The notes: a model not told the origin generated them from the sequence alone. Numbered from the stretch's first letter, positions 23,835 to 53,988 are shown. The stretch is 64,000 nt of DNA from a virus (IMGVR_UViG_3300043395_000420:29246-93245); one strand, 5' to 3'. Translations and numbers: made by a program.

Positions 23835-26414
23835 TTAGTCTTGTTCTTCTTCTAAGTTTGGATATGATGTTAATGCTGGATTTCCATATATACCTCTTTG
23901 CATATTATACCAATCAGAATCATTACTAGATTTTGCACTACGTGATGATGTTCTCTTATTATAACCCGCCATCTCTTTTGCAATATCTGCTATTTCTTCA
24001 GAACTTAATTCTCCTAGTCTTTCATCTTCTCTTAGTCTAGCATAAATGTCTGCAAAACTATTTGCAACACCTGGCTCCATAGGAGTAGGTTTGTAATAGT
24101 ATAATGCTCCTGCTGCTGCCGGTGATATTTGATAATTAGGATATAGCATATTAAGATTATATGCCTGTGCCTCATTAGTTTTAGCCTGCACAAGATTATT
24201 TACAAATTCATTAGCTGCGGCACGTGTTGAGTTATCATAGTTTTGATTAACTGCTGTAAGTTCATCATAATATGTTTTAGCAAGTTGTACATTAGCAAGT
24301 CTTTCTTGATTTTCTACTGCTGCTTTTTGTTGTGCATAATTATTATATATACCAATGTTGGCATTATGAACTTGTCCAATAACATTAGCAGCATTTTCAA
24401 ACATATTACCAGACATACCGGTCATTTTACCGGGTATCTGTTGTGGAGAACTTGCTGCCAACGCATCTTTCATAATAGCAAGTTGTTCATTTCCAGCAGC
24501 AATCTGTCTTTCTGGAGTAAGATATGCTACCTCGGGAGACATTAAATCTACACTAAATTTATTAGGCATAAACTTTTGTAGACTTGCTAAGTTTCCTAAT
24601 GCTTGAGCCATCTTTAACTGATCCTGTAAAAACATTTCAGGAGGTGTATAAGATGGAACTTCTTGATCTTCTACAGGTTCGTATTCATAATCATACTCAT
24701 CATATGCATTTTCTTCTAATGTAGGATCTCCTTTAATACCTGCTAATTGTCCAGATGTTGTATTAGTATAAACAGCATCTACGGGAGATATATAAGGATT
24801 TTTGCCACCTTCATCTCCTTTACCTCTTTGAGCTTTCTTAAAATCAGGTAGAATATCGGTATCTGCGATATTTTCAAATGCCCAGTATGCGGCTTGTTGT
24901 GCAGCAGCATTTGTTGCATTAGGCATTTCTATACCTACATTCTTAGCATATTCATTTAGTGTTTTATTACTTACACCATATAACTTTTTAGTTAAATCAT
25001 TGTCAGGACTATTAGGTGCTTTAGAAACATCATAACCATGTGCTACAAATGCAAGATTTCTTTTTTGCATTTCTAAGAACTGGTCTCTTACTTCTTCCGG
25101 ACTTAGTTTTTTAAGATCTTCTATTTCAACACCTCTTTGCGTTAAACTCTGTTCTCTATATGCTTTTTTATCATCAAATACTTTTGAATACTCATTATAT
25201 AAAGCATCCATTACAGCAGGATCTTGAAGACGTTGCTTTAAATATTCATACCTATTAGCAATATCTTTTTTACCCTTAAATGTTTTATCAAGATCATCCC
25301 CTGTATATTCCGGAAACTGAAATGCTTTACTTACAACTTTTTTATAATTACCGTCTTTGTCTAAAATAAAGACTTTACTTTTATCAGATGCTGCATTATA
25401 TTTTTCTCTTTTAGCTTTTTGGTATGCTGCTTCTGTATCATAATCAGCTCTTCTAATAATAATAGCATCTTTTGGAATAGGTCTTTTTACTTTTTTCTTT
25501 TTTCTTGTTCCTCCACCCGATGCATATTCTACTAAACCACCGTTTTTAAACTCATCAGGCATGATACCTTCAGGTGCCGGATTACCATTTCCATCATAGA
25601 ATACGGGTCCTCCTTCTTCCATATAAAGATACACTCCTTGTGTAGGATCGAATTCATTATTCTTTTTACGGATACCTTGAATAAAATTATTAAGACGTGC
25701 TGTACGTCCTCCATATTTCATAGGTGCTTCATCAAGTTCTTCTTCATACATTTCAGGAGACTCTTCCATTTCTTCTTGAGGAAGTTGTCCTTGATTATTC
25801 ATTCCAGGAACTGGAGGTAGTACATCTTCTGGACGTACTCCAATACTCATTAAATATGGAGTTGCTATTACAGGAATACCTCCAGGGTATCCTTTCATAG
25901 ATTCTTGAATTAAGGCTAACTTTCCTAGTTTAAGATTAAACTGCTTAATCATATTTTCAGCAGTAAGTTTTGCTAATTTATCTTCAGTAGGATCCGCAAG
26001 TATTTGTCTATATTTATTAATGTTATAGTTCTTAGCAATCTCTGCTGGAGTATAACCTTTCTTTTTTATAGGCATACTAAACTCTTTCTGTATATCAGGA
26101 TCTTTAATACGCATACTTGCTGTATCACTAAATATAAAAGAGTCCGGTGGTACGGATAAAGGCACACCTCCCTCATAGTGACGTTTACCGTTTATTTTAT
26201 AATGAGCTGGTAAGTCATCAACATTAGGAACATATACTGTCTCTCCTCCCTCTGCTTCTATATTTGCTTCGTCTCTTGGTACTCCGGATAAACTGCTTCT
26301 AAGACTTATAGGTTTCTCTGAACTATTATTTTGAATATAGGTAGGTGCCATTTGTGTAAATGGAAATCCTCCTTTTTTCATATTAGGTAATGAAGTTATT
26401 TTAACTTTTTTCAT
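23835..26414 (-). CDS. Putative cargo protein (crAss cargo-protein-1-like)
   Basis: 859 aa. ANIEAEGGETV...GKRHYEGGVPL...FIFSD motif is typical of crAss-like cargo proteins. Gln/Asn/Ala-rich C-terminal helix; several xxGG motifs. Confidence 0.7.
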   Translation of the reverse strand: MKKVKITSLPNMKKGGFPFTQMAPTYIQNNSSEKPISLRSSLSGVPRDEANIEAEGGETVYVPNVDDLPAHYKINGKRHYEGGVPLSVPPDSFIFSDTASMRIKDPDIQKEFSMPIKKKGYTPAEIAKNYNINKYRQILADPTEDKLAKLTAENMIKQFNLKLGKLALIQESMKGYPGGIPVIATPYLMSIGVRPEDVLPPVPGMNNQGQLPQEEMEESPEMYEEELDEAPMKYGGRTARLNNFIQGIRKKNNEFDPTQGVYLYMEEGGPVFYDGNGNPAPEGIMPDEFKNGGLVEYASGGGTRKKKKVKRPIPKDAIIIRRADYDTEAAYQKAKREKYNAASDKSKVFILDKDGNYKKVVSKAFQFPEYTGDDLDKTFKGKKDIANRYEYLKQRLQDPAVMDALYNEYSKVFDDKKAYREQSLTQRGVEIEDLKKLSPEEVRDQFLEMQKRNLAFVAHGYDVSKAPNSPDNDLTKKLYGVSNKTLNEYAKNVGIEMPNATNAAAQQAAYWAFENIADTDILPDFKKAQRGKGDEGGKNPYISPVDAVYTNTTSGQLAGIKGDPTLEENAYDEYDYEYEPVEDQEVPSYTPPEMFLQDQLKMAQALGNLASLQKFMPNKFSVDLMSPEVAYLTPERQIAAGNEQLAIMKDALAASSPQQIPGKMTGMSGNMFENAANVIGQVHNANIGIYNNYAQQKAAVENQERLANVQLAKTYYDELTAVNQNYDNSTRAAANEFVNNLVQAKTNEAQAYNLNMLYPNYQISPAAAGALYYYKPTPMEPGVANSFADIYARLREDERLGELSSEEIADIAKEMAGYNKRTSSRSAKSSNDSDWYNMQRGIYGNPALTSYPNLEEEQD

Positions 26415-26415
26415 A

Positions 26416-28608
26416 TTAATCTATATATTCAATAATTGCACCGCCTGCTTTTAGTTGTTTAATGGTAGCATCATCAAGGAAGTATACACCTCCTTCTTCA
26501 TACATTTCTCCACCTGACTTTCCGTAGTACATGTTGAAATTACGTTTGTCGGGGAACTGATTACCAAATTGATCATATACTCCTTTATCACCGGTAACAG
26601 GATTGACAAGATTTTCATATCCAAACTTGTTCATTACGTCACCTTTTTTCTGTTTTGCAGCATCTCTTCTATTAGCTGCCATTTCCATAATAGGAGCAAT
26701 GTAGGCACCCATTCCAAAGTTTTGACCCATTGTAATATCCTGACCAGTATTTATCCAGTTTTGTTCAGGAAGTTCTGGTGCTTTACCTATAGGCATTGTT
26801 GTTTGAGCAGTAGCTGCTTGATTATAACCTAAACCTTGGTTATTACCAACATCTTCTCCTGTGTCAATCTCCCACATACCGGGATCAAATACCTCACTAG
26901 GTCCTTGGTCTCCCTGATACTTTCTCATGAATTTAGTAAGACCTCCTCTTCTGTATGTTTCTACCATAGGAGACATACCTTGTTGTCTAATAGGACCGTA
27001 GGGCATGTCATCTGGTGAAAGATTAACAGGCGTACCATCATATACGTCAGAAAACGTTACTATTCTATTTGATGGATTTGCTGTATTTATTCTAGCAGGT
27101 ATAGGAGTAGGATTATCTATCCATTCACTATCCATTTCCTGTTGTTTCAATGCTTCTATTTCGGCCTTTAACTCTTCTGTTGTTCTTGGTATATCAGATG
27201 ATACAAAATTCATAGGAGTACCAAAAGGATTTTGGGGAGTAGATATACCACCTATCGGATTTGTAGTTGTAATCTTTGCAGGAGGTACAACTCTAGGTAA
27301 AAATCCAGGTTTTACTGGAGAACTTGGCATTTTATCTTTATTTCCTAAAACCAAACCTTCCCATTCATCAGGATATATATTATAAGGATCTTTAGGATTG
27401 ACCGGTTTAGTCTCAGTAGTTTTTTTATTATCACCTACCCCAGGAGCATTTTGCCATTTCTTCCATACATCACTGTTATCTGCTATAATAGATGCTGCAC
27501 CATTGGGCATAGATGCCATACCAGACATCATTGCAGGAGGCATCTGACCTTTCTTACCAAACTCATAATGGTATGTTCTTTCTCTAAGTTGTCCGGGACG
27601 ACCGGGATCAGAACTACCTGTTAATAAGTTTCCAAATCTACTTGCCGCATTCCATCTATATTTATCTCTAATATCCATAACAGACAATCTTGCCTGCATA
27701 TCTTTTACACTACTTTCATTATTTTTGATATCTTCTTCTTCATCAGCAATTTCTTGTTCTTCTTCCGGAGAACAGTTACCTGATGCACATTTAGATTTCT
27801 TACCTTCTAATGCTTCTATTCTTTTATTTTGTTCATCAATCTTTGCTAATAACTCCTCATTAGTTAAGGGTTTACTTTCTTCTTGCTTTTCTCCTGTATC
27901 AACGTCTGACTGAAATGTTTGAAGACCATACTTAGCTAAACCTAAGTCTTTAGGTAACATTGCTTTATATGGATCAGGCATGTTAATAGGTTGCGCATCT
28001 TCTTGCATATATGGATTAGCAAGATCATATGTATGTATTTTTTTAGCATAAGGTGTAGAATTAGCCATTGCGGTCATACGCATGTTATTTGCTAAATCAT
28101 ATACCTTATCGGCATTTACCTTACTATACATATTATTATAGTTATTCAAAAAGTTGCTGGCCTTACTAAAGTCCATACCTGTAAAGGCATCACTATTAGA
28201 TACTGTATGTGGACCCCCATCTTGAAACACACCTTTCTCTTGAGCCATGTTCATGGCATCTTCCATTAACCTTTTTTCATTTGCCCGGGCTGCCATATCC
28301 TTGACTTTACCCATAAACTTATCTAGTTTATTAATATAGAAGTTTGGTGCTACATGGTTATTAGTAATACCTCCTTCGGCCATATATCCCATTCTTGCAG
28401 CATCAGATACTTGTCTATCTATAAAACTAGAACCCATGTTCATCATAGGAAGTTGTCCGGTTTGCATTGCCATGTTAGACATTCCGGAAGTCATACTTCC
28501 TCCTACCTGCATGGTAAATGGTACTTGTGGGGTAGGATGTCCATAGTTAAAGAACTGTTGCATTGATGCTACTTGAGGAAATACCTCTCTGTTTGTACGC
28601 TTATTCAT
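26416..28608 (-). CDS. Hypothetical low-complexity virion-internal protein with xxGG motifs
   Basis: 730 aa, Met/Pro/Gln/Gly-rich; contains MQVGG, MAEGG, FQDGG, YRRGG, GKSGG and YEEGG. Tightly coupled to its neighbour. Confidence 0.65.
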   Translation of the reverse strand: MNKRTNREVFPQVASMQQFFNYGHPTPQVPFTMQVGGSMTSGMSNMAMQTGQLPMMNMGSSFIDRQVSDAARMGYMAEGGITNNHVAPNFYINKLDKFMGKVKDMAARANEKRLMEDAMNMAQEKGVFQDGGPHTVSNSDAFTGMDFSKASNFLNNYNNMYSKVNADKVYDLANNMRMTAMANSTPYAKKIHTYDLANPYMQEDAQPINMPDPYKAMLPKDLGLAKYGLQTFQSDVDTGEKQEESKPLTNEELLAKIDEQNKRIEALEGKKSKCASGNCSPEEEQEIADEEEDIKNNESSVKDMQARLSVMDIRDKYRWNAASRFGNLLTGSSDPGRPGQLRERTYHYEFGKKGQMPPAMMSGMASMPNGAASIIADNSDVWKKWQNAPGVGDNKKTTETKPVNPKDPYNIYPDEWEGLVLGNKDKMPSSPVKPGFLPRVVPPAKITTTNPIGGISTPQNPFGTPMNFVSSDIPRTTEELKAEIEALKQQEMDSEWIDNPTPIPARINTANPSNRIVTFSDVYDGTPVNLSPDDMPYGPIRQQGMSPMVETYRRGGLTKFMRKYQGDQGPSEVFDPGMWEIDTGEDVGNNQGLGYNQAATAQTTMPIGKAPELPEQNWINTGQDITMGQNFGMGAYIAPIMEMAANRRDAAKQKKGDVMNKFGYENLVNPVTGDKGVYDQFGNQFPDKRNFNMYYGKSGGEMYEEGGVYFLDDATIKQLKAGGAIIEYID

Positions 28609-28648
28609 AATTGCGCTAATATACTGTTTATATATAAGATATTAAAAT

Positions 28649-31600
28649 TTACTTGTTTTTCCTAGGAAGACTCTTGATCTTTACTTTCTTTATAGCACCA
28701 CCGTTCTTTTTAAAATAAAAGTCTCTACCATCAGGATTTGATATACCATCAGGTATCATGTTTTTAGCTGAAGTTTTATATAAAATTTCTTCTTTACTTT
28801 TATTAGGTATAGGTAATAATCCAATTGTTGCACCATATGCATTATTAAATATATCTTCTAATGCTTCTCTTCCTTTATACTTTAATGGTCTATTATCATT
28901 AAATATTGTACCTAGTTCATGTCCTACTCCCATAGCATTTGCACCTAACCAACCTAATGCTGGAGAAATTACAGGTATGTTTCCTGTTTTCTTTGCTATA
29001 GCTTGTTGAGTATACATACCAGCTAAAGGATGTCTAAAATTATCTACTGGATCTTCTCCTGGTTCTATTCCTTCTTCTGCTTCACGAGCTGCTTTACCCA
29101 TAGGATCTCCTAATGATTTATTTAATCTATCCTCATATGACATTCTTGTTTCAATAACAGGTAAAGATCTTTCACTATGCGTAGATTCCCAGATATCATT
29201 TTCCGGATTATATATCATAGAAAACTTTTGCAATTCTGTATTAGGAATAACATTACCTTTTGAATCTATATATCTAGCATATGTTTTAAAATTCGGATCT
29301 AAATATATACTTTCACCTGTTGGTGTTTTGTATTCTTTACCTTTAGCACCACCATCTTGCATTCTTACTAGACCTCCATTCTTAAATTCATATTGACCTA
29401 GATAGCTACCACCATTTTTGAAACTAACAAACTGTTTATTGACAGCTGGTTTATCTGTTTGACTTTCATAAAGTTTAGAACCTAGATAACCTGCACCTAT
29501 TGCAGGTACTGCAACTGGTAATATTTTAATTGCAGCTCTTTTTTCTGCTAAAGATGTTTCTGGTTTAAAATGTTTATTGAGATTTCCTTCTTCAATTAAG
29601 TAATCTGTAAAATCATCTCTATCCTGTTTAAGAATTTTTACAGCTTCTTCCATAGATATACCGTGATCTTTCATCATATCTTTAGCAGTTTTTAATCTAG
29701 CTTTACCTAATTCTGAATGTAATTCTCCAAGACCTGATAACCATGTTTGATAAGTATATTTACCATTATCAGGAGCGGTTGGTTCTACCATAATACTTTT
29801 AAACATTTTAGCTAAATCATTTTTATCATGATTTACATAATAAGCGTAATTAGGATCATGGTGTTGTACAGCATCTATCCAGTTATTAATTAACTGTCTA
29901 TCATGATTTATTTCATGAATACCTACCCCACCTACTTCAGTAGGATTAACCAACATATTTTGCTCTAAATCAACTAATGATTTTTTAGTTTTTGTTTTAA
30001 AAGGATTTGACCAACTCCAAGGTAATTTTTCTTTTTTTATGTGAGTTGTTATAATAGGTTTTTTTCTAGTACCTAATGTAATTGTACTATTATTTAGTCT
30101 AACACCGCCTATATCGTCAATATTTTGTCTTAAAAAGAGTTTTTCAAGTTCTAACAAGTTTTGAAAACTAGGGTCATCCTCATTAAAATATACTAACTTG
30201 TTTCTTTCATCATTTGGTAAAACCACTTGTAGTTTATCAATATCATAATCATTATTTGCTTTCTTTAACTCTAATGCTTTTCTTTCAAATTCAGGATCAT
30301 ATATACTAATACTATTTTTTAAATCATCTATGGCTTTATCTAATTCGGCTTTTTCATTAAAAGTAGTTAACCATAGAGTATTTTCTTGTCTTTCTAATGC
30401 TTCTTTTTCATCTGTTAATCTTGCAAGATTTTTTCCTTCTGTATCACTAGCTAATTCTAATTCTATTTCATTAGATCTTTTATCCAACTCAGCTACTTTA
30501 TCATAATATTCTTTATCTTTAATAGCTTTTGCATCCTTAAGTTTTTGTATTTCAGGTTTTATTTTTTCATAATCTTCTAAACCTTGCTTACTATATGTCC
30601 ATAATTTATCAAACTCTGTAGCTTCATCAAATGCTTTTTGTTGGTCTGCTCTTGTAAAACTTTTTGAATAACCCGATTCAGGTACTCTGTCTATACTTAC
30701 TTTTTGACGTTCTAAATCTTGCAGACCTTCTAACTCTATTTCGTCTAAACTCTTACCAATTTTGTTTTCTTTAAAAAATTCATCTATAGTACGATTGTTA
30801 TATACTTTAGAAGGTATGTTTTTTGAAACTTTTTTTGCAATTGACCCAAATGGTAAAAATCCTGCAATGTTTAGTCCTGCTTCTCCAGCACCACCCCAAG
30901 TAGTATATGTTTCTTTTTCTCCTAAGTCTCTACCAACTCTTCCTATATCCATTAGTACAGATGCAGGATTGAATGCTCCTATTATATCACTCATAGGAGA
31001 TGATGTAGGATAGTTACCACTTAGGTTACCTTGTGGTATATAACCTCTTTGTATCAATGATCCTAATGCATCAAGAGGTTGATCCATTGCATAAATAAAC
31101 TGGTGCTTTAATCTTTCAAAACCTTCAGGTGCAGGTTTAAGAGTCCCTTGTTGATCTGCCAAATATTTTTCAAAATCTTCTTTTTTAGTATCTATTACTA
31201 AAGGTGCCATTGATGTACCAGATTCCCATATATTATCTTGCACATCAAATAAAGACATGTTCTGATCTGGCGTTATAGCATTACCTTTTTCATCTACATA
31301 GTAACGTTGGTTCTTAAACCTAGGATCTAAATATAAACTTTGTCCTGTAGGAGTTTTATACTCTCTCCAACCTTTACCTTTAGGACTAACTTGACTTGGT
31401 GAGTCATCTCCCTGCATCTTTACTAACCCACCGTTTCTAAACATATACTTTCCTAAGTAAATACCTCCACCGGTTTCCATTGCACTTAAACCTTTAGTAT
31501 ATAAATTCTGATGACCTCTTGATCTATTCTCCCATTTTTCAGGAGTAATTCTCCAACTTCTAATAGGTTCAAGTGCTTTTTCACCAGGTGTTCCTAAATG

Positions 31601-34600
31601 AATATAATGCGCATATTTATTAACAGGGTCATAATCCGGATGATGAGTTTTCATATAATCCTGAACACTTTGATTATATAACTCATTTGTTTCTTGTTCT
31701 AATCTTTTAATTTGTTCTCTGATAGGTTGCTGTTCTTCCCACGTGTATTTGCTTAATGATTCTCCTAATTCACGCGCCTTTTTCATTTTTTCCTGATAAG
31801 GTTGAGTCTTTAACCATTCAGATAAATTTTTACTAGTACCTTCTTTTTTAATTAAAAAATCAAAAGCATCTGTTGCCTGATTTGATCTTTCTGTTCTTAA
31901 TAGTTTTTTATCATATGTTAGAGGGGGAAATAATTCATCCATTTTAGCCTGTTTTACTGCCGCAAACTCATCCATAAAATCATCTAGTACATCGTCAGGT
32001 ACAAATTCACCATCAGCAACACCATATTTTTTTCTTAAATCTTTTTGTAATTTTGGAACCTCATCTAAAAATGTATTTAATCTATCATATTTTTCTTGGC
32101 TTATACTACCTCTTTCTAGATAATGTTTAAGATCGTCTCTTGTAACACCTCTTAAAGTTTCTAAACTAACTCCTCTTTCACCAGCTTTAGGTAAATATTC
32201 ATCATAGTACTCGGGTCTATTTTCAGTTATCCAGTCTTGTCTATTAGCTGATGAAAAGTTTGTAGGTCGTTTTGCTTTAACAATATAACCGTTACCATAA
32301 GTGTATCCTTCAGCTGTACGCATTGAGTTACTTGTATACAAACCTTCTAAACCCCTACCTAAGTAATGATTATCTAATGATGCTCTTCCATATCCTGTAC
32401 TTATAGGAATATGCGTTGCCATATATTCAGCTGCACCTTGAGGGTTATTTATATAATCTATACCATTTTTTTCAAAATTGTCTGTAATGTTTTTCCATAG
32501 TTCTTTACCTTTTTCAGGTCCGTATTCTCTAACTAATGCTTTTTGTAATTCATCCCAATTAGTACTTATACCTCTTACAAAAGTATTATGTCTATTCATT
32601 AAACCTCTAATAGTTCTATTAGTTAGTTCATCTGATTGTGCTATTCTTTCTAGGTTAGCAGGAAGTTCGTATCCATATTGATTTGCAAATTCTTGTAACT
32701 TTTGAAGATCTTCTAAATTTTTAGATGCATTTGCAGAAGAACTTGTCACATTTTTTAACAGGGTTTCTGTAGTAATAAATTTACCGGTTTGTTTTGCACC
32801 ACTTATAGCAGCTTTTCCTATACCTACACCAACAAAGTCTAATGCATTTAGTCCTGTTGCAATTGCTGCATCTGTAATATTTGATGTTGTAGGATTATCA
32901 ACAGCTTTAGATATTATATTATATGTATGTGGTAATTGAGTAATTCCGTATCCTGTACCTAATGCAGCTATTGTATTACCTACTGTAATTCCAGGAACTG
33001 CAGAACCTGCTACAATCATTGGTGCTTCTAATGATCCTATTACAGCTGGTGCCGCAAATGGTGCTGCTAATACTCCAGTTGCTAATGCTGACTTCTGTAC
33101 AAAATCTTTTTGATTATCAATAATGTACTGTCTAGCTTTTTCAGGAGTCATTTTTGTTACGTCCTTTTTTATCTTACCAACTATTTTTTTATCTTGCTGA
33201 TCCCATGTACGTTTATCTTTAGATAAAGTTTTAGTAGTCTGATCTACTTCAGTTTGTTGATCAGGTTTTAAAAAATGTAAAGTTCTAGTATGTGGATTAT
33301 ACCCACCTTTTCCTTCATAAACTAGTTTACGAATTTGTGCGTCATATCTATCATCTCCAGAATACATTGCACGATTATCAAACCATTCAGGATTATCTTT
33401 ATAAGTAAGAACTTGATTAGGATATGTATTAAGGTCTACTTGTCCTTTGTCTTGATATTTTACAAGTCCCCCATACTGTTTCTGAATTTTATTCTTTTCA
33501 TTGTAGTAATCTTTTTCTTCAGACTCTACAGCTCTCATAACATATTTCTTATTTACATTATCCCAGACAGCTTCATAGTTTGGTTGCTGACCTGTTCTAT
33601 TGCCATAATTAAGTTGACCAATGTTTTGAGATTTTCTAAAAGTCTTACCCAGACCTATATTAGTATCAATGTTCTTTAAACTAGGTACTGTTACTGGTAA
33701 TCTTTTAAGAGGTAATGGTTCTATCCTGTTTAATGTTTCATCATCTACTATTCCTAGTCCAATATTTGGATCAAAATTAGGATCTCCTGTCCATACTGGT
33801 ATTGTTTTAGGAGCAGCATATCTAGGACTCCATGCTCTACCATCCCAGTAAACTCCTACAGGTCTAATTTTAGGATGTACAACATCTGCTGATGTATGAT
33901 ACATAATATTATCATCAGTAAGTCCTAAAGATTTGTAATACTTAATAAGGTCTCTGTCTTCTTTTGTGACAAAGTAGTTATCAGTAAACATATCTTTTTC
34001 ATTTATAAAGTCTTTAGCCATTGGGCCGTAACTTTCTAAACCTGGAACAACTCTTGGAATTCTATTATTTTTTAAATTTTTTACACTAAAGTCTGAAATA
34101 GGTGGTGCATTTTTTATACTTTTTCTTGCAGCTGTGTATTGGTTACTAGGAGCATTTTTATTCATTAACCTATTCTGCATAACCATAGCTTGATTCAAAA
34201 TAGTACTATCTTGATATGCAGCAAATGCTTTTAAGAACTCATCTTTATCATCAATATATCGTGGTACTTGTCCTTTCTTCTGATATTTAGTAAGTCCCCC
34301 GTATTGCTTTTTAATTTTATTTTTCTCATTATAGTAATTTTGTTCTTCTGGTTCTATTTCCTGCATAGTCCATTTTTTATTTGTGTTGTCCCATACGGCT
34401 TTATAATTTGGTTGTTGACCCGTACGATTTCCATAATTTAATTGACCTATACTTTGAGAATCAAATCTACCTTTACCTAAACCTATTCTTGTATCAATTG
34501 ATCTTAACTGTGGTACAGTTACTGGTAATTTAGTTAGTGGTTTAGATTCTATTCTTTCTAATGGCGGTTCAAATACTACAGGTTGAGTTGGTTTTTTATA

Positions 34601-35137
34601 AACTGGAGCATTTGGATCAGATAAAGGTAATCCCCAACCATACCAACTACCCCTTATTGGTTCTAATTCTTCTTTATTTAAGTCTTCTAGTCTATCAAAA
34701 GCATCATGAACATTTCTGGGTACAAAACCACGTGTTGTTAGTATTTCTCTTGCTTCATTAAATCTACCAGCGTTTATTAAATCATCAATATATTTAGCAT
34801 TTTTTGCTGCAATTGCTGGACCATTGTATACAGTTAAACTATCTTGATAAGCTTGGTTTGCTATTTTAAATTCTTCAGGATCTGATATCACACGTGGTAC
34901 TTGTTTACCTTTTTGATATTTACCTAAAGGTATCTCAGTAACATACTGACCTGGGAAAGTATAATCCATACCCGGCATCATCATTTGACGGTTACCTAAG
35001 TTGTCTATGCCCATTATAGGAAATGGAACAGTATGCATAGTAATCTGATTACTAGGGATAATGTTCATTGGGTTGTATCTATCCGGACTGTTAGGTAAGT
35101 ATCCGGTATTAGTAATTCTTACTTTACGTTTATTCAT
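28649..35137 (-). CDS. Polyvalent modular protein (internal repeats; ART-like, HExxH zincin and DUF6973-like modules)
   Basis: 2162 aa with two internal duplications and xxGG linkers. Motifs FVRG...GLYTSNS..AEGY, GIHEINH..GELHSE and DNFRH..GHE..DIFNNAYG. TAATG-coupled to the muzzle gene. Confidence 0.7.
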   Translation of the reverse strand: MNKRKVRITNTGYLPNSPDRYNPMNIIPSNQITMHTVPFPIMGIDNLGNRQMMMPGMDYTFPGQYVTEIPLGKYQKGKQVPRVISDPEEFKIANQAYQDSLTVYNGPAIAAKNAKYIDDLINAGRFNEAREILTTRGFVPRNVHDAFDRLEDLNKEELEPIRGSWYGWGLPLSDPNAPVYKKPTQPVVFEPPLERIESKPLTKLPVTVPQLRSIDTRIGLGKGRFDSQSIGQLNYGNRTGQQPNYKAVWDNTNKKWTMQEIEPEEQNYYNEKNKIKKQYGGLTKYQKKGQVPRYIDDKDEFLKAFAAYQDSTILNQAMVMQNRLMNKNAPSNQYTAARKSIKNAPPISDFSVKNLKNNRIPRVVPGLESYGPMAKDFINEKDMFTDNYFVTKEDRDLIKYYKSLGLTDDNIMYHTSADVVHPKIRPVGVYWDGRAWSPRYAAPKTIPVWTGDPNFDPNIGLGIVDDETLNRIEPLPLKRLPVTVPSLKNIDTNIGLGKTFRKSQNIGQLNYGNRTGQQPNYEAVWDNVNKKYVMRAVESEEKDYYNEKNKIQKQYGGLVKYQDKGQVDLNTYPNQVLTYKDNPEWFDNRAMYSGDDRYDAQIRKLVYEGKGGYNPHTRTLHFLKPDQQTEVDQTTKTLSKDKRTWDQQDKKIVGKIKKDVTKMTPEKARQYIIDNQKDFVQKSALATGVLAAPFAAPAVIGSLEAPMIVAGSAVPGITVGNTIAALGTGYGITQLPHTYNIISKAVDNPTTSNITDAAIATGLNALDFVGVGIGKAAISGAKQTGKFITTETLLKNVTSSSANASKNLEDLQKLQEFANQYGYELPANLERIAQSDELTNRTIRGLMNRHNTFVRGISTNWDELQKALVREYGPEKGKELWKNITDNFEKNGIDYINNPQGAAEYMATHIPISTGYGRASLDNHYLGRGLEGLYTSNSMRTAEGYTYGNGYIVKAKRPTNFSSANRQDWITENRPEYYDEYLPKAGERGVSLETLRGVTRDDLKHYLERGSISQEKYDRLNTFLDEVPKLQKDLRKKYGVADGEFVPDDVLDDFMDEFAAVKQAKMDELFPPLTYDKKLLRTERSNQATDAFDFLIKKEGTSKNLSEWLKTQPYQEKMKKARELGESLSKYTWEEQQPIREQIKRLEQETNELYNQSVQDYMKTHHPDYDPVNKYAHYIHLGTPGEKALEPIRSWRITPEKWENRSRGHQNLYTKGLSAMETGGGIYLGKYMFRNGGLVKMQGDDSPSQVSPKGKGWREYKTPTGQSLYLDPRFKNQRYYVDEKGNAITPDQNMSLFDVQDNIWESGTSMAPLVIDTKKEDFEKYLADQQGTLKPAPEGFERLKHQFIYAMDQPLDALGSLIQRGYIPQGNLSGNYPTSSPMSDIIGAFNPASVLMDIGRVGRDLGEKETYTTWGGAGEAGLNIAGFLPFGSIAKKVSKNIPSKVYNNRTIDEFFKENKIGKSLDEIELEGLQDLERQKVSIDRVPESGYSKSFTRADQQKAFDEATEFDKLWTYSKQGLEDYEKIKPEIQKLKDAKAIKDKEYYDKVAELDKRSNEIELELASDTEGKNLARLTDEKEALERQENTLWLTTFNEKAELDKAIDDLKNSISIYDPEFERKALELKKANNDYDIDKLQVVLPNDERNKLVYFNEDDPSFQNLLELEKLFLRQNIDDIGGVRLNNSTITLGTRKKPIITTHIKKEKLPWSWSNPFKTKTKKSLVDLEQNMLVNPTEVGGVGIHEINHDRQLINNWIDAVQHHDPNYAYYVNHDKNDLAKMFKSIMVEPTAPDNGKYTYQTWLSGLGELHSELGKARLKTAKDMMKDHGISMEEAVKILKQDRDDFTDYLIEEGNLNKHFKPETSLAEKRAAIKILPVAVPAIGAGYLGSKLYESQTDKPAVNKQFVSFKNGGSYLGQYEFKNGGLVRMQDGGAKGKEYKTPTGESIYLDPNFKTYARYIDSKGNVIPNTELQKFSMIYNPENDIWESTHSERSLPVIETRMSYEDRLNKSLGDPMGKAAREAEEGIEPGEDPVDNFRHPLAGMYTQQAIAKKTGNIPVISPALGWLGANAMGVGHELGTIFNDNRPLKYKGREALEDIFNNAYGATIGLLPIPNKSKEEILYKTSAKNMIPDGISNPDGRDFYFKKNGGAIKKVKIKSLPRKNK
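29180..31470 (-). repeat. Second diverged repeat (~29180-29420 and ~31210-31470) inside the 2162-aa gene
   Basis: Both copies encode GG..YLG.Y.F.NGGLV.MQ...EYKTPTG.S.YLDP.FK...Y.D.KGN.I...IWES. Confidence 0.85.
33437..34565 (-). repeat. Diverged direct repeat (~300 bp units at ~34265-34565 and ~33437-33735) inside the 2162-aa gene
   Basis: Both copies encode L.RIE..PL..LPVTVP.L..IDT.IGLGK....SQ.IGQLNYGNRTGQQPNY.AVWDN.NKK..M...E.EE..YYNEKNKI.KQYGGL.KYQ.KGQV. Confidence 0.9.
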
Positions 35138-40434: not shown

Positions 40435-40435
40435 A

Positions 40436-41338: not shown

Positions 41339-41340
41339 TA

Positions 41341-42009
41341 TTATGATCTTAAGGGTGATTGTTTATCTCCGGCAACTGGGTCATTATTCATTTGCATACT
41401 TCTTGCAAAATCATTTGCTACTTGTTGTTCTATTTCAGCAAATAACTCAGAAGGTATGGAAAATACTTGATTTTGAATAGGTTCACATTCAGAGTTACAT
41501 TTGAATATATTTAAAGAGTCCTCAAATATTCCATCTACTGCAATACTTGGCCATGTAACATTGGGTAAATAGATGTATCCATCTAGTAACCAATAGTATT
41601 TATTCTTGTTATACTTTGCTCCTGATGTTTTTTGCAAAGCATTATACAACTGGGGAGTTGTTCTGAATGCTTCAGTAGCAGCATCAATAGATCCTACAAA
41701 ACGTAACAATGGTCCGGATGCTCCGTCTAAAATACCAGGCATCTTTTCTTTTGTACGCATTACGGTTACACCAGATGTAACATCACAACAAGCCTCTACT
41801 CTATCTACCTCTATCAACTCCACACATCCTAGACGAGTAAATAAACTGTTAAACTTAGCACGACTTGTTATATTGTCCTGTCTTTTAATATACATTTTAG
41901 CATACTTCATTATGTTACTATAGATTACTCTATCAGTAATAAATGAATCAGCATCAACCGCCTTGATCTGATTACGTATACGTGATATTACTTCTCCAAT
42001 GGTTGTCAT
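41341..42009 (-). CDS. Tail ring / adaptor protein
   Basis: 222 aa with TIGEVISRIRN..D..ITDR, RTKEKMP and YYWLLDGYIYLPN; synteny. Confidence 0.65.
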   Translation of the reverse strand: MTTIGEVISRIRNQIKAVDADSFITDRVIYSNIMKYAKMYIKRQDNITSRAKFNSLFTRLGCVELIEVDRVEACCDVTSGVTVMRTKEKMPGILDGASGPLLRFVGSIDAATEAFRTTPQLYNALQKTSGAKYNKNKYYWLLDGYIYLPNVTWPSIAVDGIFEDSLNIFKCNSECEPIQNQVFSIPSELFAEIEQQVANDFARSMQMNNDPVAGDKQSPLRS

Positions 42010-48253: not shown

Positions 48254-48271
48254 CAGATAAGTTTTTAAGTA

Positions 48272-49612: not shown

Positions 49613-49640
49613 AGTTTTTTGTTTTTATAAATATATATAA

Positions 49641-50098: not shown

Positions 50099-50100
50099 AA

Positions 50101-50808
50101 TTACGTATTAGTCTGTGATGATGCTTGGGCTACCTGATATTGAAAAACAGATTCCATATCTCCGGCAAGTATTTGAACAGCATCATCAATCATTATTTCT
50201 GCAATGTCATCTTTAAACTCACAGATAACATCTTCAGTAGATACCTGTAATGTATACGGATCTGTTGTTCCGGCTATCTGTATCTTTCTAGGAGTCCTGT
50301 AATATATAAAATTTACATTGTCCAACTTAAATTCTCCGGCAGTATAGATACGTAATCTATTTGCTATAAGAGTACAGAATGTTTCTCCCCATTCAAAACT
50401 AGGTCGTTTAAGATAATCATCTAATAAGATAGATATATTTTCTTCTTCTGCTAAGTAGGTTACATTAATGTGTTGACTATCTACACAACAGTCTTTTACA
50501 GCATATGCATCTACTCTCTTAAATGCCATGTAATCTTCAGGTAATGGACTATCTTCAAATAAAGGTTGTATAAATGTGTCTAATCTTTGAGTTTTTAAAA
50601 TAACCTGAAGATCATCTACCTTAGTAGTACTTTGTTCATCAGCAGCTTTTGTAATATTAATACCCTCAATTTGACGACGGCACCATTGTAACTGTGCCTT
50701 ATTAAATGCCTCAACCATCTGCCAAGGTTGAATATTGTCATAGTCATGACTATCCAACTTATTCAGACGTTGTTTAATTTTTAATTGTAAGGTAGTATTA
50801 TTAATCAT
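50101..50808 (-). CDS. Head-tail ring/adaptor protein (conserved crAss-like)
   Basis: 235 aa with KQRLNKLDS, FNKAQ, DDLQVIL, LPEDY and YYRTP motifs typical of the first ring protein. Confidence 0.7.
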   Translation of the reverse strand: MINNTTLQLKIKQRLNKLDSHDYDNIQPWQMVEAFNKAQLQWCRRQIEGINITKAADEQSTTKVDDLQVILKTQRLDTFIQPLFEDSPLPEDYMAFKRVDAYAVKDCCVDSQHINVTYLAEEENISILLDDYLKRPSFEWGETFCTLIANRLRIYTAGEFKLDNVNFIYYRTPRKIQIAGTTDPYTLQVSTEDVICEFKDDIAEIMIDDAVQILAGDMESVFQYQVAQASSQTNT

Positions 50809-51098
50809 TATCCTTTAACTCTTTTTAAACGAGGGTTTGCTTTCTTAGCAGCTGGAGATGCTTTACGGGTTGATGCAGCAAGAATAGCAGATGCTGCTTC
50901 TTTAGATACTCCTTGTTTCTTAGCAATGCTAGATGCTACTGCTTTAAAACCAGGATGTGCTGCACCACCTTTCTTAAATACACCACGTCCTTTAAGAACG
51001 TCAGCTTGTGTTACTTTACCATCTTTGGTAAGGTCGGGAAAAGATCCTCCAGTTTTATACTTCATGGATCCTCCACATTTCATACATTTCTTTGCCAT
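50808..51098 (-). CDS. Small basic protein with an EF-hand-like DxxxDG loop and an Ala/Lys-rich module
   Basis: 96 aa; modules FPDLTKDGKVTQADVL and HPGFKAVASSIAKKQG are separated by xxGG motifs. Confidence 0.75.
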   Translation of the reverse strand: MAKKCMKCGGSMKYKTGGSFPDLTKDGKVTQADVLKGRGVFKKGGAAHPGFKAVASSIAKKQGVSKEAASAILAASTRKASPAAKKANPRLKRVKG

Positions 51099-51104
51099 AA
51101 TATA

Positions 51105-51757: not shown

Positions 51758-51758
51758 A

Positions 51759-52175
51759 TTACTTTTTTATAAACTTATTTAGTTTTATTAATTTAACTAT
51801 TTTATTTGTTATTTCCTCAGCTAATGTAACAATTTCTTCTTCTTTATTATTCACATCCCAGTTATTTAATAACAAAGCCATGTGTGTTGCCTCATGATTT
51901 AAAACTGTTATATCAGTAAAATCACCTTTAAAATGTTTCTTATTTATAAATAAGAAAGGTTTATATGGAGCTTTTCCTGTTAGCTTTTTGTCTCTGGGAT
52001 CATAGTTAGTTAATCCCATTATGTAAACACCATTGCCTTTAGTCTTATCTACTTCTTCAGCCTGGGCATCCTCTCTTCTAAGTCCATGTAAGATATCAAC
52101 ATTGTAATAGTCAAATATTTCTGTGGCATCTTTACCAAGCAAGAAAACATATTTGCCCATATCAATTTTTCTCAC
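51759..52175 (-). CDS. Small zincin-like metallopeptidase
   Basis: LFIN...TVLNHEATHMAL...EEEIV: HExxH plus a downstream Glu; 138 aa. Confidence 0.65.
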   Translation of the reverse strand: MRKIDMGKYVFLLGKDATEIFDYYNVDILHGLRREDAQAEEVDKTKGNGVYIMGLTNYDPRDKKLTGKAPYKPFLFINKKHFKGDFTDITVLNHEATHMALLLNNWDVNNKEEEIVTLAEEITNKIVKLIKLNKFIKK

Positions 52176-52569: not shown

Positions 52570-52571
52570 TG

Positions 52572-52922
52572 TTATTTCTTTTTAGATTTTACAGCACCAC
52601 CTTTTTTAAACTCTTGTTCTGCTAACCTAACATTTTTGGTTTTTTCACCTGTATATTTAGAACGTTTTACTCTTACATCCTCTGCACGTTCGCGTAGTCT
52701 ATCTGCTTTTTCTCCTTGTGCAATAGTTCTATTTTCCCAATATCCTTTAGAATCAGATGACACAGATGGTGAATTATAGTTATCATATGCCTTAATAGCT
52801 TTAGTTTCAGCTTTATTTGCTCTATTTTCTAACCTATTAATTTTATTAGTAGTTCTTTTAATAACTCGTTGAGCTTTATTAGACGCACCACCATCTTGTT
52901 TCTTAACTAATTTTTTTGCCAT
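52572..52922 (-). CDS. Small basic protein (MAKKLVKKQxGG family, copy 2)
   Basis: ATG at 52922 (TGATG overlap) is preferred over the GTG at 52925. Ends FKKGGAVKSKKK. Confidence 0.75.
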   Translation of the reverse strand: MAKKLVKKQDGGASNKAQRVIKRTTNKINRLENRANKAETKAIKAYDNYNSPSVSSDSKGYWENRTIAQGEKADRLRERAEDVRVKRSKYTGEKTKNVRLAEQEFKKGGAVKSKKK

Positions 52923-53329
52923 CACTTACTCTTTTTAATGGATCCACCTTGTTTTTTAACCGAGCCTCCTTTTTTCATTATTGACCATGAATCATTTTTA
53001 TTTCTACCAATATTATTAGTGATTCTGTCTGTTTTTCTTTCAGCTTTTTTTGGACTTATTGATGTTTTTGATTCTGATTTTACAGCACCATCTTTACCAG
53101 TAACTGTTTTTGTATAAGAAGAAACAGGTACATAACCATATGATGTATTATAGTTTTTAGTAACCTTATCTCCGTTTAATTTTGTTCTTGTTACTGATGC
53201 ATTTGATTGACTACTATCTACATTTAGACTTCTTACTTTTCTAGATTTTAATCTACCATTAGGGGTCAAAATTCCTTTATCATCATTTGAAGCACCACCC
53301 TTTTGTTTTTTAACTAGTTTCTTTGCCAT
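52922..53329 (-). CDS. Small basic protein (MAKKLVKKQxGG family, copy 1)
   Basis: 135 aa, Lys/Ser/Thr-rich; ends MKKGGSVKKQGGSIKKSK. Confidence 0.75.
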   Translation of the reverse strand: MAKKLVKKQKGGASNDDKGILTPNGRLKSRKVRSLNVDSSQSNASVTRTKLNGDKVTKNYNTSYGYVPVSSYTKTVTGKDGAVKSESKTSISPKKAERKTDRITNNIGRNKNDSWSIMKKGGSVKKQGGSIKKSK

Positions 53330-53532
53330 TATTTTTTAGTTTTACGATTTGTTGTAGATTTTACCATACCACCTAACATCATTAGTTGTTGTTCAGTAGC
53401 TTTACGAACTTTACCTAAAAGAGCTTTATCTTTTTGTAGGTCATTGTATCTGCGGATAGTATCCATAGCAGATTCTACTTTCCAACGTTCTTCACGCATT
53501 TTGTCTTCTTTAGACATTTTCATTTGTGCCAT
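53329..53532 (-). CDS. Small basic hypothetical protein (67 aa)
   Basis: Start reassigned to MAQMKMSKEDK (ATG 53532, 1 nt after the upstream stop) to avoid a >100-nt overlap. Confidence 0.7.
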   Translation of the reverse strand: MAQMKMSKEDKMREERWKVESAMDTIRRYNDLQKDKALLGKVRKATEQQLMMLGGMVKSTTNRKTKK

Positions 53533-53533
53533 A

Positions 53534-53803
53534 TTATCTATAGTTTTTAGATTTTTCTTTTGCTGATTTTGGTTGAGGTACAAACTGTTTACCAGATTTG
53601 TTACCTTTTGCTTTAGCAGCATTAGTAGCAGCTTTCTCACCAGAAGTTAAAGCATCCCATGCTGCTTTAGGTAAGTATCTTTTCTTACCTTTAGATTGAA
53701 CCTCTTTAGAAGATCCTTTTTTAGCATTTGCATGAGTACCTGAAGTCATCCATTTCTGGTCACCCCAGTTCTTTAAACTCTGTTGAGACTTAGCCAGTGC
53801 CAT
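53534..53803 (-). CDS. Small basic protein (DUF5872-like)
   Basis: SQQSLKNWGDQKW...KRYLPKAAW..L...EKAATN..K..G...GKQFVPQP. Confidence 0.78.
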   Translation of the reverse strand: MALAKSQQSLKNWGDQKWMTSGTHANAKKGSSKEVQSKGKKRYLPKAAWDALTSGEKAATNAAKAKGNKSGKQFVPQPKSAKEKSKNYR

Positions 53804-53988
53804 TACTTATATCCTCCCCCCTTAGATTTATACTCTTTAGCAAGTAACTGTGCTTTTCTAGCTGACCATTCTCCAGGATCTCCACCTTTAGTTCCTGCCT
53901 TAATCTTTTTAAATAAAGATTCTCTCATACCAGGTTTGGTATAATTACCGGCTTGGTTAACTTTAGATTTTGTTTTCTTAGCTGCCAT
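53803..53988 (-). CDS. Small basic protein (GxWSARKAQ family)
   Basis: NYTKPGMRE...KGGDPGEWSARKAQLLAKEYKSKGGGYK. Confidence 0.8.
   Translation of the reverse strand: MAAKKTKSKVNQAGNYTKPGMRESLFKKIKAGTKGGDPGEWSARKAQLLAKEYKSKGGGYK

What the first reader, a model, noticed from the sequence alone, without database searches (positions are those of the whole stretch)
23835..53988. Shared [M/F/Y/K]-x-x-GG motif across cargo proteins and tiny basic proteins: candidate packaging or processing signal
Seen in: the 859-aa protein (MKKGG, MKYGG, MEEGG, FKNGG, YASGG); the 730-aa protein (MQVGG, MAEGG, FQDGG, YRRGG, YEEGG); the 2162-aa protein (KQYGG x2, METGG, FRNGG, FKNGG x2, MQDGG, KKNGG); the 96-aa protein (MKCGG, YKTGG, FKKGG); and the 117/135-aa proteins (KQDGG, FKKGG, KQKGG, MKKGG). 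The motifs fall at termini and between recognisable modules, often in pairs (FKNGGLVEYASGG; FKNGGLVRMQDGG). They are not similarly clustered in terminase, portal or the fibre proteins. Inference: a capsid-targeting tag or a di-glycine protease cleavage site that turns these ORFs into polyproteins of injectable modules.
Basis: partly seen in the sequence, partly recalled or inferred. Interest (0 to 1): 0.75.

Follow-up and report, generated by a model that had tools for sequence, protein, structure and literature searches.

The report
Gly-Gly junction tag on crassvirus cargo
A short peptide (bulky residue, Lys/Gln, any residue, Gly-Gly) really does mark the ends and module joints of the proteins this crAss-like phage probably carries in its particle; it is conserved in over a thousand relatives and I found no description of it, but whether it is a docking hinge or a cutting site is still not shown.

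Summary
With [MFY] at -3, the motif is 5 to 12 times denser in two gene slots than elsewhere. The slots are three hypervariable cargo genes after the muzzle gene and an array of small basic proteins after the capsid gene. The excess survives local-composition shuffles and holds in relatives that were not used to define the motif.

The core is phi-[K/Q]-x-G-G, the end of an 8-residue unit (L-x-K-phi-Q-x-G-G) that often comes in tandem. Lys at -3 is not enriched on its own.

The window is crAss-like (ring proteins 1 and 2). The N-domain of the 859-aa protein best matches the portal-bound domain of crAss001 cargo protein 1.

New here:
- The tag sits at 22 of 25 fused junctions.
- At natural split sites the upstream protein ends in an acidic strand and the downstream one starts with a basic strand (K-V-K-I). 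Neither strand is found in fused forms, and their charges co-vary.

I favour an uncut hinge-plus-docking-strand joint (0.45) over a protease site (0.30); nothing here is decisive.

The 138-aa zincin is not conserved and is an unlikely partner. This scan has reported the same tag on other phage genomes.

The parts
23835..26414 (-). 859-aa cargo protein, C1 (gp45)-like
   Evidence: Gene lies after the muzzle-position and ring genes. Homologs in all five relatives. 1587 homologs of its N-domain.
25878..26309 (-). Portal-binding-like domain of the 859-aa protein (residues 36-179)
   Evidence: AF2 with a 68-sequence alignment gives pLDDT above 90. The best of 48,161 PDB chains is 7qog_M, crAss001 cargo protein 1 residues 435-548: Z 5.3, rmsd 3.8, 93 aligned, 27% identity.
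   Evidence: The strand is present at 136 of 191 split N-termini and 0 of 25 fused junctions. Low pLDDT.
25512..25721 (-). Linker of the 859-aa protein with four tags (residues 232-301), including the pair F-K-N-G-G ... Y-A-S-G-G
   Evidence: AF2 pLDDT below 50 for residues 198-313. The tag positions recur in the alignment of orthologs.
26416..28608 (-). 730-aa cargo protein with five tags
   Evidence: The tags keep their positions in homologs P0001-P0008. P0002 carries an extra cassette of about 281 aa bounded by a duplicated tag.
26419..26445 (-). C-terminal acidic strand of the 730-aa protein (G-G-A-I-I-E-Y-I-D, then stop)
   Evidence: Conserved end G-[GY]-x-[IVL]-E-[YF]-[LI] in 40 of 45 distinct gene pairs of relatives. 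Its charge co-varies with the next protein's N-terminal strand.
28649..35137 (-). 2162-aa modular (polyvalent-like) cargo protein with eight tags
   Evidence: Only about 75 N-terminal residues are conserved between relatives. The same N-terminus is seen in Cellulophaga phage phi4:1 gp040, a virion protein by MS/MS.
31427..31480 (-). Tandem junction in the 2162-aa protein (M-E-T-G-G ... F-R-N-G-G)
29348..29422 (-). Triple junction in the 2162-aa protein (F-K-N-G-G, F-K-N-G-G, M-Q-D-G-G)
   Evidence: The same kind of end is seen in G003 (940 aa) and G005 (2926 aa).
50808..51098 (-). 96-aa basic protein with three tags before a P-G-F-K-A module
   Evidence: The same module stands free in G002, G004 and G005 and lies inside the 936-aa cargo-slot protein of G003.
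52572..53329 (-). 117-aa and 135-aa basic proteins with an N-terminal cap (M-A-K-K-L-V-K-K-Q-x-G-G) and C-terminal caps (phi-K-K-G-G plus a Lys-rich tail)
   Evidence: Uniform C-terminal tails in 20 further relatives.
53329..53988 (-). 103-aa and 61-aa basic proteins with C-terminal tags
51759..52175 (-).
   Evidence: The motif is present. No Pfam or PHROG family. A homolog only in G001, at another place in the genome.
35137..42009 (-). Context: 1765-aa muzzle-position protein, CrAss_Ring_1 (40436-41338) and CrAss_Ring_2 (41341-42009)
   Evidence: Pfam PF24228 (2.9e-11) and PF25702 (5e-18). PHROG virion structural protein for the 1765-aa protein.

Best explanation
The motif is the core of a junction-and-cap peptide of crAss-like cargo proteins.

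SHOWN:
- One unit is a short extended segment closed by a Gly-Gly (L-x-K-phi-Q-x-G-G). It often comes in tandem, so that two GG bracket a 6-8-residue segment.
- A long form is G-G-x-x-K-K-V-K-I-x-x-L-P-K-A-Q-x-G-G.
- It joins exchangeable modules inside the three cargo proteins encoded after the muzzle gene.
- It caps the ends of small, very basic proteins encoded after the capsid gene.

INFERRED:
- I read the GG as hinges and the segments between them as docking strands that stay uncut.
- They would tie modules and separate cargo proteins into a flexible beads-on-a-string chain. They may also dock it to the portal or tail lumen, so the cargo can be stored partly unfolded and leave in order.
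- Where a cargo protein is split into two genes, the covalent joint would be replaced by a charge-complementary pair: an acidic C-terminal strand (G-G-x-I-E-Y-L-D) and a basic N-terminal strand (K-V-K-I).
For: 1. The motif is specific, position-dependent and conserved. It is enriched against local shuffles in this genome, in five relatives, in 20 further loci and in 139 distant representatives. Gly codons in the tags follow genome usage, and the terminal strands vary at synonymous sites, so selection acts on the peptide.

2. The tags lie in stretches predicted to be disordered, at domain edges.

3. The 859-aa N-domain best matches the portal-bound domain of crAss001 gp45. In gp45 a tag-like stretch (A-F-G-G-W-L-N-T-Q-G-G, residues 425-435) lies at the start of the piece that the paper reports modelled as residues 425-552 on the portal wing. 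That reading leaves those GG uncut in the mature virion. The chain has 126 modelled residues.

4. Fused against split forms:
- The tag is within 75 aa upstream of the domain in 22 of 25 fused proteins.
- The basic strand is absent from all 25 fused junctions and present at 136 of 191 free N-termini; the acidic strand is also absent from all 25.
- Only 12 of 558 ORFs in six genomes start with such a strand, and 9 of them are in the two slots.

5. In 45 distinct neighbouring gene pairs:
- an acidic residue upstream goes with K/R downstream in 38
- both are lost together in 6, in at least three lineages, including an E-to-K change paired with R-to-Q (L187 and L190 against sister L175)
- one intermediate pair has Q with R
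- the distant cyanophage Lbo-JY46 fits the rule.

6. The cargo-slot proteins are almost free of Cys: 13 of 18 have none, as do 101 of 139 relatives. No conserved JAMM motif was found. A Cys or JAMM protease of the known GG-specific kinds is therefore not built into them.
Against: - No binding partner is identified and no complex could be modelled.
- The crAss001 stretch is only tag-like, and the fold match is modest (Z 5.3).
- The co-variation rests on about three independent losses among related phages.
- Several features would suit a protease site equally well: small residues (S/A/T/G) follow GG in 47% of tags; tags come in pairs; free small proteins carry half-junctions at both ends.
- Conserved HExxH motifs exist in co-packaged giant proteins, and a conserved DUF2201 metallopeptidase gene is present.
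- The N-terminal cap is missing in many family members, so it is not needed by every polypeptide.
Confidence: 0.45

Rival explanations
1. Di-glycine processing site. The cargo genes encode polyproteins that a phage metalloprotease cuts at or next to the tags, in the procapsid or after injection, to release the modules. The candidates are a zincin domain of a co-packaged giant protein, a zincin cassette in the 2162-aa family, or the DUF2201 peptidase. The terminal caps would be trimmed off. One version is a T4-like targeting peptide that is removed after loading.
For: - The tag is at 88% of fused junctions but at only 35% of free N-termini.
- Tags come in pairs that bracket a short spacer.
- Free small proteins look like excised modules with half-junctions.
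- Small residues follow GG in 47% of tags.
- HExxH motifs are conserved in the 1875-aa and 4419-aa families in all six genomes, and zincin-like cassettes occur in four 2162-family proteins.
- A conserved DUF2201 putative metallopeptidase is encoded.
- Precedent: polyvalent proteins are predicted to be processed by zincin-like peptidases, and P1 DdrB is processed before packaging (PMC5512222).
- In crAss001 the two resolved gp45 pieces are bracketed by tag-like sites.
Against: - No cleavage is reported for crAss001 (0 mentions). Its GG 427-428 and 434-435 lie inside one modelled piece.
- The known GG-specific proteases are Cys or JAMM enzymes (my own knowledge), and none is evident in the cargo proteins.
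- No peptidase family was found among the head-module proteins scanned.
- Pro and many other residues follow GG.
- A cut at the GG before the acidic C-terminal strand would free the very strand that co-varies with the next protein.
- The giant RNAP-associated proteins do not avoid the motif, though the numbers are too small to weigh.
Confidence: 0.3
2. Passive seam. The peptide is a flexible linker left by cassette exchange and has no dedicated partner. It persists because recombination at seams yields viable chimeras.
For: - The cargo slot is hypervariable. The 730-aa protein has no BLAST hit in the five relatives, and the 2162-aa protein has only short hits.
- A cassette insertion is bounded by a duplicated tag in P0002.
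- Modules move between slots.
Against: - The residues at -3 and -2 and the L-P-K-A-Q part are far more conserved than a spacer needs. They are kept from this clade to a cyanophage whose capsid protein is 28% identical.
- Synonymous sites vary, so DNA homology is not what is kept.
- Stand-alone small proteins keep the tag at their ends.
Confidence: 0.13
3. Nucleic-acid-binding or condensing tails. The Lys-rich stretches next to the GG bind the packaged DNA, and the bulky residues act as stickers that condense cargo with the genome.
For: - The small-slot proteins have 20-30% K+R.
- The C-terminal tails are uniformly phi-K-K-G-G plus a Lys run.
- The putative scaffold is acidic, 20% D+E, and has no tag.
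Against: - Many tags in the large proteins sit in acidic or neutral surroundings (M-E-E-G-G, Y-E-E-G-G, F-Q-D-G-G).
- The preference for M/F/Y at a fixed distance from GG is not explained.
- The strand co-variation points to protein-protein pairing.
Confidence: 0.07

Closest known systems
Cargo protein 1 (gp45) of Bacteroides phage crAss001 (PDB 7QOG, 7QOI, 7QOJ, 7QOL, 8CKB; Bayfield et al. 2023, PMC10172136)
   Same: - Same gene position, after the ring and muzzle genes.
- The 859-aa N-domain gives gp45 435-548 as best structural match.
- gp45 also has a basic N-terminus, A-[FY]-G-G sites bracketing its two resolved pieces, and a C-terminal G-G plus Lys-rich tail.
   Different: - Sequence similarity is marginal (E about 0.05).
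- The domain is N-terminal here and internal in gp45.
- The strong phi-[KQ]-x-G-G / L-P-K-A-Q consensus, the tandem pairs and the tagged small basic proteins are not described for crAss001. The paper does not mention any such motif.
Polyvalent proteins of phages and conjugative elements (Iyer, Burroughs, Anand, de Souza, Aravind 2017, PMC5512222)
   Same: - Long proteins built of many exchangeable modules and delivered with the DNA.
- Zincin-like motifs are frequent.
- Processing by such peptidases is proposed.
- Weak language-model lead from one cassette to LPD23 (0.84).
   Different: - No Pfam domain of that set is detected.
- The paper's text has no occurrence of 'linker' or 'glycine', so I saw no junction peptide defined there.
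Phage T4 capsid targeting sequence of internal proteins, removed by prohead protease gp21 (my own knowledge)
   Same: A short terminal peptide shared by unrelated, often basic, internal proteins that are injected. An acidic scaffold is a possible receiver.
   Different: - T4 sites are L/I-x-E and are cut by a head-module serine protease.
- No such protease family was found in the head-module proteins scanned here.
- The tag also lies inside proteins and at C-termini.
GG-directed proteases and their sites: adenovirus protease (M/I/L)-x-G-G|x, ASFV pS273R G-G|x, double-glycine leaders cut by C39 peptidases (my own knowledge)
   Same: A bulky hydrophobic residue a fixed distance before GG. In adenovirus the substrates include small basic core proteins.
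   Different: - The bulky residue is one place further from GG here (P5, not P4).
- Those enzymes are cysteine proteases, and the cargo proteins here are nearly Cys-free.
- No such enzyme was identified.
Encapsulin cargo-loading peptides and microcompartment encapsulation peptides (my own knowledge)
   Same: Short terminal peptides on flexible linkers that dock unrelated cargo inside a shell; the encapsulin shell has the HK97 fold.
   Different: - Different sequence.
- Those peptides are terminal only and bind the shell protein; here the partner is unknown.
- At split sites the partner appears to be the neighbouring cargo protein.

Membership tests
crAss-like phage cargo protein C1 (gp45) family | Gene directly downstream of the tail ring and muzzle genes | tested here: met
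   CrAss_Ring_1 and CrAss_Ring_2 lie at 40436-42009. A 1765-aa protein follows, then the 2162-, 730- and 859-aa genes.
crAss-like phage cargo protein C1 (gp45) family | Domain with the fold of the portal-bound piece of gp45 (residues 425-552) | tested here: met
   VIA-align rank 1 of 48,161 chains: 7qog_M, Z 5.3, rmsd 3.8, 93 aligned, 27% identity. The score is modest, and Foldseek found nothing.
crAss-like phage cargo protein C1 (gp45) family | Significant sequence similarity to gp45 | tested here: inconclusive
   BLASTP E 0.071 and hhalign E 0.053, in the same stretch as the structural match. phmmer against PDB found no hit.
crAss-like phage cargo protein C1 (gp45) family | Presence in the virion, bound to the portal | not testable with these tools
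   Uncultured phage; no proteome or map.
Polyvalent proteins (Iyer et al. 2017) | Several unrelated effector or LPD domains in one polypeptide | tested here: inconclusive
   Modular build, internal repeats and exchangeable cassettes are seen, but there are no Pfam hits. The LPD23 lead scores only 0.84.
Polyvalent proteins (Iyer et al. 2017) | Zincin-like metallopeptidase domain | tested here: inconclusive
   HExxH motifs occur in the 2162-aa protein and in three relatives of that family, in two types. No fold or family was confirmed.
T4-type capsid targeting sequence with prohead protease | Head-maturation protease gene in the head module | tested here: inconclusive
   No peptidase family in the proteins between TerL and the tail genes that were scanned. 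Not every ORF was scanned by structure.
T4-type capsid targeting sequence with prohead protease | Cleavage of the tag in mature particles | not testable with these tools
   Needs mass spectrometry of virions.
Substrates of GG-directed cysteine proteases (C39, adenain/Ulp1 clan) | Hydrophobic residue at P4 (one residue before GG) | tested here: not met
   [MFY]-x-G-G is not enriched and tends to be rarer than in shuffles: 12 vs 22.5 in the cargo slot and 1 vs 2.8 in the small-protein slot. The preferred place is one residue further out.
Substrates of GG-directed cysteine proteases (C39, adenain/Ulp1 clan) | A cysteine protease encoded with the substrates | tested here: inconclusive
   Cargo-slot proteins are nearly Cys-free, and the giant proteins have Cys only near their ends. 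The early genes were not searched exhaustively.

The most novel reading that the evidence does not exclude
crAss-like phages assemble their injected cargo into one continuous thread. Modules are joined by GG-hinged docking strands. Where the thread is split into separate genes, the pieces would be re-joined head to tail, non-covalently, by a charge-complementary pair: an acidic C-terminal strand and a basic N-terminal strand. This would set the order of storage and ejection through the portal and tail.
Probability: 0.3. Interest if true: 0.8.

Novelty: new variant of a known kind. Interest (0 to 1): 0.6.

Why it matters
How crassviruses load several megadaltons of protein cargo into the capsid and tail, and then push it out in order ahead of the DNA, is an open question raised by the crAss001 structure.

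A conserved peptide that marks exactly these proteins is a concrete handle on that question. It is found in more than 1500 sequence clusters and in at least two cultured phages, Cellulophaga phage phi4:1 and Leptolyngbya phage Lbo-JY46. It can be mutated, fused to reporters, searched for in virion mass spectra and looked for in maps.

The fused-against-split comparison and the charge co-variation of the terminal strands give a specific hypothesis that can be tested at the bench. If the tag proves portable, it could also serve to load foreign proteins into phage particles.

Tried and rejected
- DNA (megablast) and protein searches of the cargo genes against 50,697 phage records found nothing. 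A 30-aa junction peptide by tblastn also found nothing.
- PHROG and Pfam scans of the cargo proteins, whole and cut at the tags, gave no family.
- phmmer against PDB with the 859-aa and 1765-aa proteins gave nothing useful.
- The AF2 model of the whole 859-aa protein with 6 sequences was poor (mean pLDDT 49), and its Foldseek search was meaningless.
- Foldseek with the good N-domain model found nothing; only VIA-align wide found gp45.
- Composition artefact: rejected by local shuffles and by wrong-spacing controls.
- DNA-level signal (Shine-Dalgarno-like GGAGG, or recombination homology): rejected. Gly codons follow genome usage and synonymous sites vary.
- Met at -3 as an internal start codon: not pursued, because Phe and Tyr fill the same place about equally often.
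- A-rich codons after the start as the reason for the K-V-K-I start: unlikely. Only 12 of 558 ORFs begin this way, and 9 of them are in the two slots.
- The 138-aa HExxH protein as dedicated protease: rejected as not conserved.
- A conserved JAMM motif: none found.
- Literature: no cleavage reported for crAss001; no paper on Lbo-JY46.
Full report
**What the window is.** The 64-kb window is the late arm of a 93,245-bp phage contig. All late genes lie on the minus strand. In order along that strand they are: TerL, portal, a 409-aa acidic protein, the capsid protein, a 338-aa protein, an array of small proteins, fibre-like proteins, and two proteins that match Pfam CrAss_Ring_2 and CrAss_Ring_1. 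Then come a 1765-aa protein in the muzzle position, the 2162-, 730- and 859-aa proteins, and four giant proteins, including a 4419-aa protein with an SF1 helicase domain. This is the crassvirus layout, in which the genes after the muzzle encode cargo proteins (PMC10172136). The nearest cultured phages are distant: Leptolyngbya phage Lbo-JY46 (capsid protein 28% identical) and Cellulophaga phages phi4:1 and phi17:2.

To test it on data that were not used to define it, I fetched five related genomes with portals 69-78% identical. Two slots were defined by synteny alone.

Density of [MFY]xxGG per 1000 residues:

| Region | All six genomes | Without this genome |
|---|---|---|
| Cargo slot | 2.7 | 2.5 |
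| Small-protein slot | 6.1 | 6.0 |
| Everything else | 0.48 | 0.48 |

The association of M/F/Y at -3 with GG is significant without this genome, at about 1.5e-4 for each slot.

Shuffling residues within 20-residue windows keeps local composition but destroys the signal: 61 observed vs 22.6 +- 4.7 in the cargo slot, and 22 vs 2.7 +- 1.6 in the small-protein slot. The rest of the proteomes shows no real excess (87 vs 73.5). The sharper pattern phi-[KQ]-x-G-G is 9 to 23 times over expectation. Other spacings and aliphatic residues are not enriched. Lys at -3 is not enriched by itself.

Larger samples agree:
- 94 vs 9.8 +- 3.0 in 123 small-slot proteins of 20 further relatives
- 405 vs 85 +- 10 in 139 representatives of the 859-aa family at 50% identity or less.

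Pairs of GG 6-10 residues apart occur 25 times against 5.7 +- 2.4.

**What the motif is part of.** Read in context, the pentapeptide is the end of an eight-residue unit, L-x-[KR]-phi-[QK]-x-G-G. The unit is often tandem, so that two GG bracket a short segment. A long form is G-G-x-x-K-[KR]-V-K-I-x-x-L-P-K-A-Q-x-G-G.

Half-forms cap protein ends:
- The 859-aa protein starts with K-V-K-I, L-P and M-K-K-G-G.
- The 2162-aa protein ends with K-K-N-G-G, K-V-K-I and L-P.
- The small basic proteins start with M-A-K-K-L-V-K-K-Q-x-G-G and end with phi-K-K-G-G plus a Lys-rich tail.

The distant cyanophage Lbo-JY46 starts the corresponding protein with K-I-R-I-I-G-L-P-K-A-Q. Cellulophaga phage phi4:1 gp040, a virion protein by MS/MS, shares the 2162-family N-terminus and carries several phi-Q-x-G-G sites. 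In crAss001 and phi14:2 I saw only a looser form with an aromatic residue or Met close before GG.

**Modules are exchangeable.**
- The cargo-slot proteins keep only a terminal anchor between relatives: about 75 N-terminal residues in the 2162-aa family, about 30 C-terminal residues in the 730-aa family, and the N- and C-domains in the 859-aa family. The rest hardly aligns, yet the tags persist.
- The P-G-F-K-A module stands free in the small-protein slot of four genomes and lies inside a 936-aa cargo-slot protein in a fifth.
- In one relative an 83-aa-like protein and the DUF6321 protein are fused through an M-K-T-G-G tag.
- A homolog of the 730-aa protein has an extra cassette of about 281 aa bounded by a duplicated tag.

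**Structure.** AF2 of the whole 859-aa protein gives low confidence for residues 1-57 and 198-313, which hold all five of its tags. With a 68-sequence alignment, residues 38-205 fold with pLDDT above 90 while the N-terminal cap stays low. Against 48,161 PDB representatives the best match is chain M of 7QOG, cargo protein 1 (gp45) of crAss001, residues 435-548: Z 5.3, rmsd 3.8 A, 93 residues, 27% identity. The score is modest. It stands first, though, and the weak sequence match falls in the same stretch. It also fits the gene order. I therefore take the 859-aa protein to be C1-like, with its portal-binding domain at the N-terminus.

**Cut or uncut.** The crAss001 paper reports residues 425-552 of gp45 as one modelled piece on the portal wing. 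In the gp45 sequence, residues 425-435 read A-F-G-G-W-L-N-T-Q-G-G. If so, those two GG are uncut in the mature virion. Both resolved pieces of gp45 (214-245 and 425-552) are bracketed by such sites. Neither that paper nor the isolation paper reports cleavage.

The cargo-slot proteins are almost free of Cys (10 Cys in about 22,000 residues). No conserved JAMM motif was found. The known kinds of GG-directed protease are therefore not built into them.

Candidate metalloproteases do exist. HExxH motifs are conserved in the 1875-aa and 4419-aa families. Zincin-like cassettes occur in four proteins of the 2162-aa family. A conserved DUF2201 metallopeptidase sits next to a MoxR-like ATPase.

**Fused against split forms (new here).** The N-domain family has 1587 members, which fall in 1561 clusters at 50% identity.
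- In 25 proteins the domain is internal, and 22 of them have a tag within 75 residues upstream. In 191 proteins the domain is N-terminal, and 67 of them have one.
- The basic strand [KR]-[VI]-[KR]-[IV] is absent from all 25 fused junctions and present at 136 of the 191 free N-termini. The acidic strand is also absent from all 25.
- The strand is not a general start-of-gene feature: only 12 of 558 ORFs begin this way, and 9 of them are in the two slots.

In 45 distinct neighbouring gene pairs from related contigs, the upstream 730-family protein ends in G-[GY]-x-[IVL]-E-[YF]-[LI](-D). A few bases later the downstream 859-family protein starts with the basic strand and L-P.

| Upstream residue | Downstream residue | Pairs |
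|---|---|---|
| E or D | K or R | 38 |
| S (G005 clade) | no strand | 3 |
| K (L187, L190; sister L175 has E with R) | Q | 2 |
| no strand (L170) | no strand | 1 |
| Q (L193) | R | 1 |

Both strands vary at synonymous sites. This window fits the rule (G-G-A-I-I-E-Y-I-D, then M-K-K-V-K-I), and so does Lbo-JY46. The sequences are related, so these counts are not independent events; I count about three separate losses.

**Reading.** The tag is a specific peptide under selection, not a composition effect or a DNA signal. I favour GG hinges around short docking strands that stay uncut. At split sites a charge-complementary strand pair would stand in for the covalent joint (0.45). A protease site remains a serious rival (0.30), including a T4-like targeting peptide that is removed after loading. 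It fits the junction bias, the pairs, the half-junction caps and the small residues after GG. A passive recombination seam (0.13) and DNA-binding tails (0.07) explain less. The decisive test is mass spectrometry of virions of phi4:1 or Lbo-JY46.

**Earlier notes of this scan.** The same genome was flagged for this motif from the neighbouring window (e1-5966998). At least ten follow-ups on other phage genomes reached the same description (a Gly-Gly junction tag with L-P-K-A-Q) and left cut-or-dock open. I derived the extended consensus before reading them (note). The enrichment, the crAss001 comparison and the fold match were tested independently here. I saw nothing about the fused/split contrast or the strand co-variation in the summaries shown to me.

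Noticed in passing
window 1522-20581 and the genome upstream; G001-G005: The giant RNAP-associated proteins have Cys almost only within a few residues of their N- and C-termini. The pattern recurs in all five relatives: for example, starts M-x-C or M-x-x-C and ends with C within the last six residues.
   Followed up: partly
window 23835-35137; slot-A proteins of G001-G005: The cargo-slot proteins are almost Cys-free: 13 of 18 have none, against a 0.95% background. 101 of 139 distant family members also have none. This may reflect storage and passage in an unfolded state.
   Followed up: partly
window 51105-51527 (-): A 140-aa endonuclease VII / HNH-like gene (Pfam PF02945, 2.2e-15) sits among the small basic protein genes. 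It has no BLAST homolog in the five relatives and is probably a mobile insertion.
   Followed up: no
window 51515-51757 (-): An 80-aa DUF6321 protein (Pfam 9.4e-19). In PHROGs the same domain forms the C-terminal end of much longer proteins. In G004 it is fused to an 83-aa-like protein through a tag.
   Followed up: partly
genome G000:C1:10061-12455 (outside the window; locus L128): A conserved pair of genes: a DUF2201_N putative metallopeptidase with a VWA-like domain, and a MoxR-like AAA ATPase. It is the only protein scanned here that reaches Pfam's cut-off for a peptidase family.
   Followed up: partly
genome G000:C1:20805-21907 (outside the window; locus L129): Two more small proteins (155 and 211 aa) at the far end of the late operon carry typical caps: F-K-K-G-G plus a Lys tail at the C-end, and Y-Q-V-G-G at the N-end. 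G005 has a similar one.
   Followed up: no
window 28649-35137 (-): The 2162-aa protein contains internal duplications. One is a ~90-aa unit ending in K-Q-Y-G-G (about residues 201-290 and 477-565). The other is a ~75-aa unit following each tandem junction (about residues 1236-1318 and 1921-1998).
   Followed up: no
window 49673-50098 (-) and 47625-48182 (-): A DUF5856 protein (Pfam 1.5e-21), and a conserved 185-aa protein with a Cys-rich end (G-G-C-N-C-S-D-C). Functions unknown.
   Followed up: no
859-family C-termini in relatives (P0130 and later; G004 1144-aa protein): Many family members end in a tag followed by a conserved hydrophobic peptide (G-G-[FY]-V-...-N-V-F-P-F-I). This window's 859-aa protein lacks it.
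   Followed up: no
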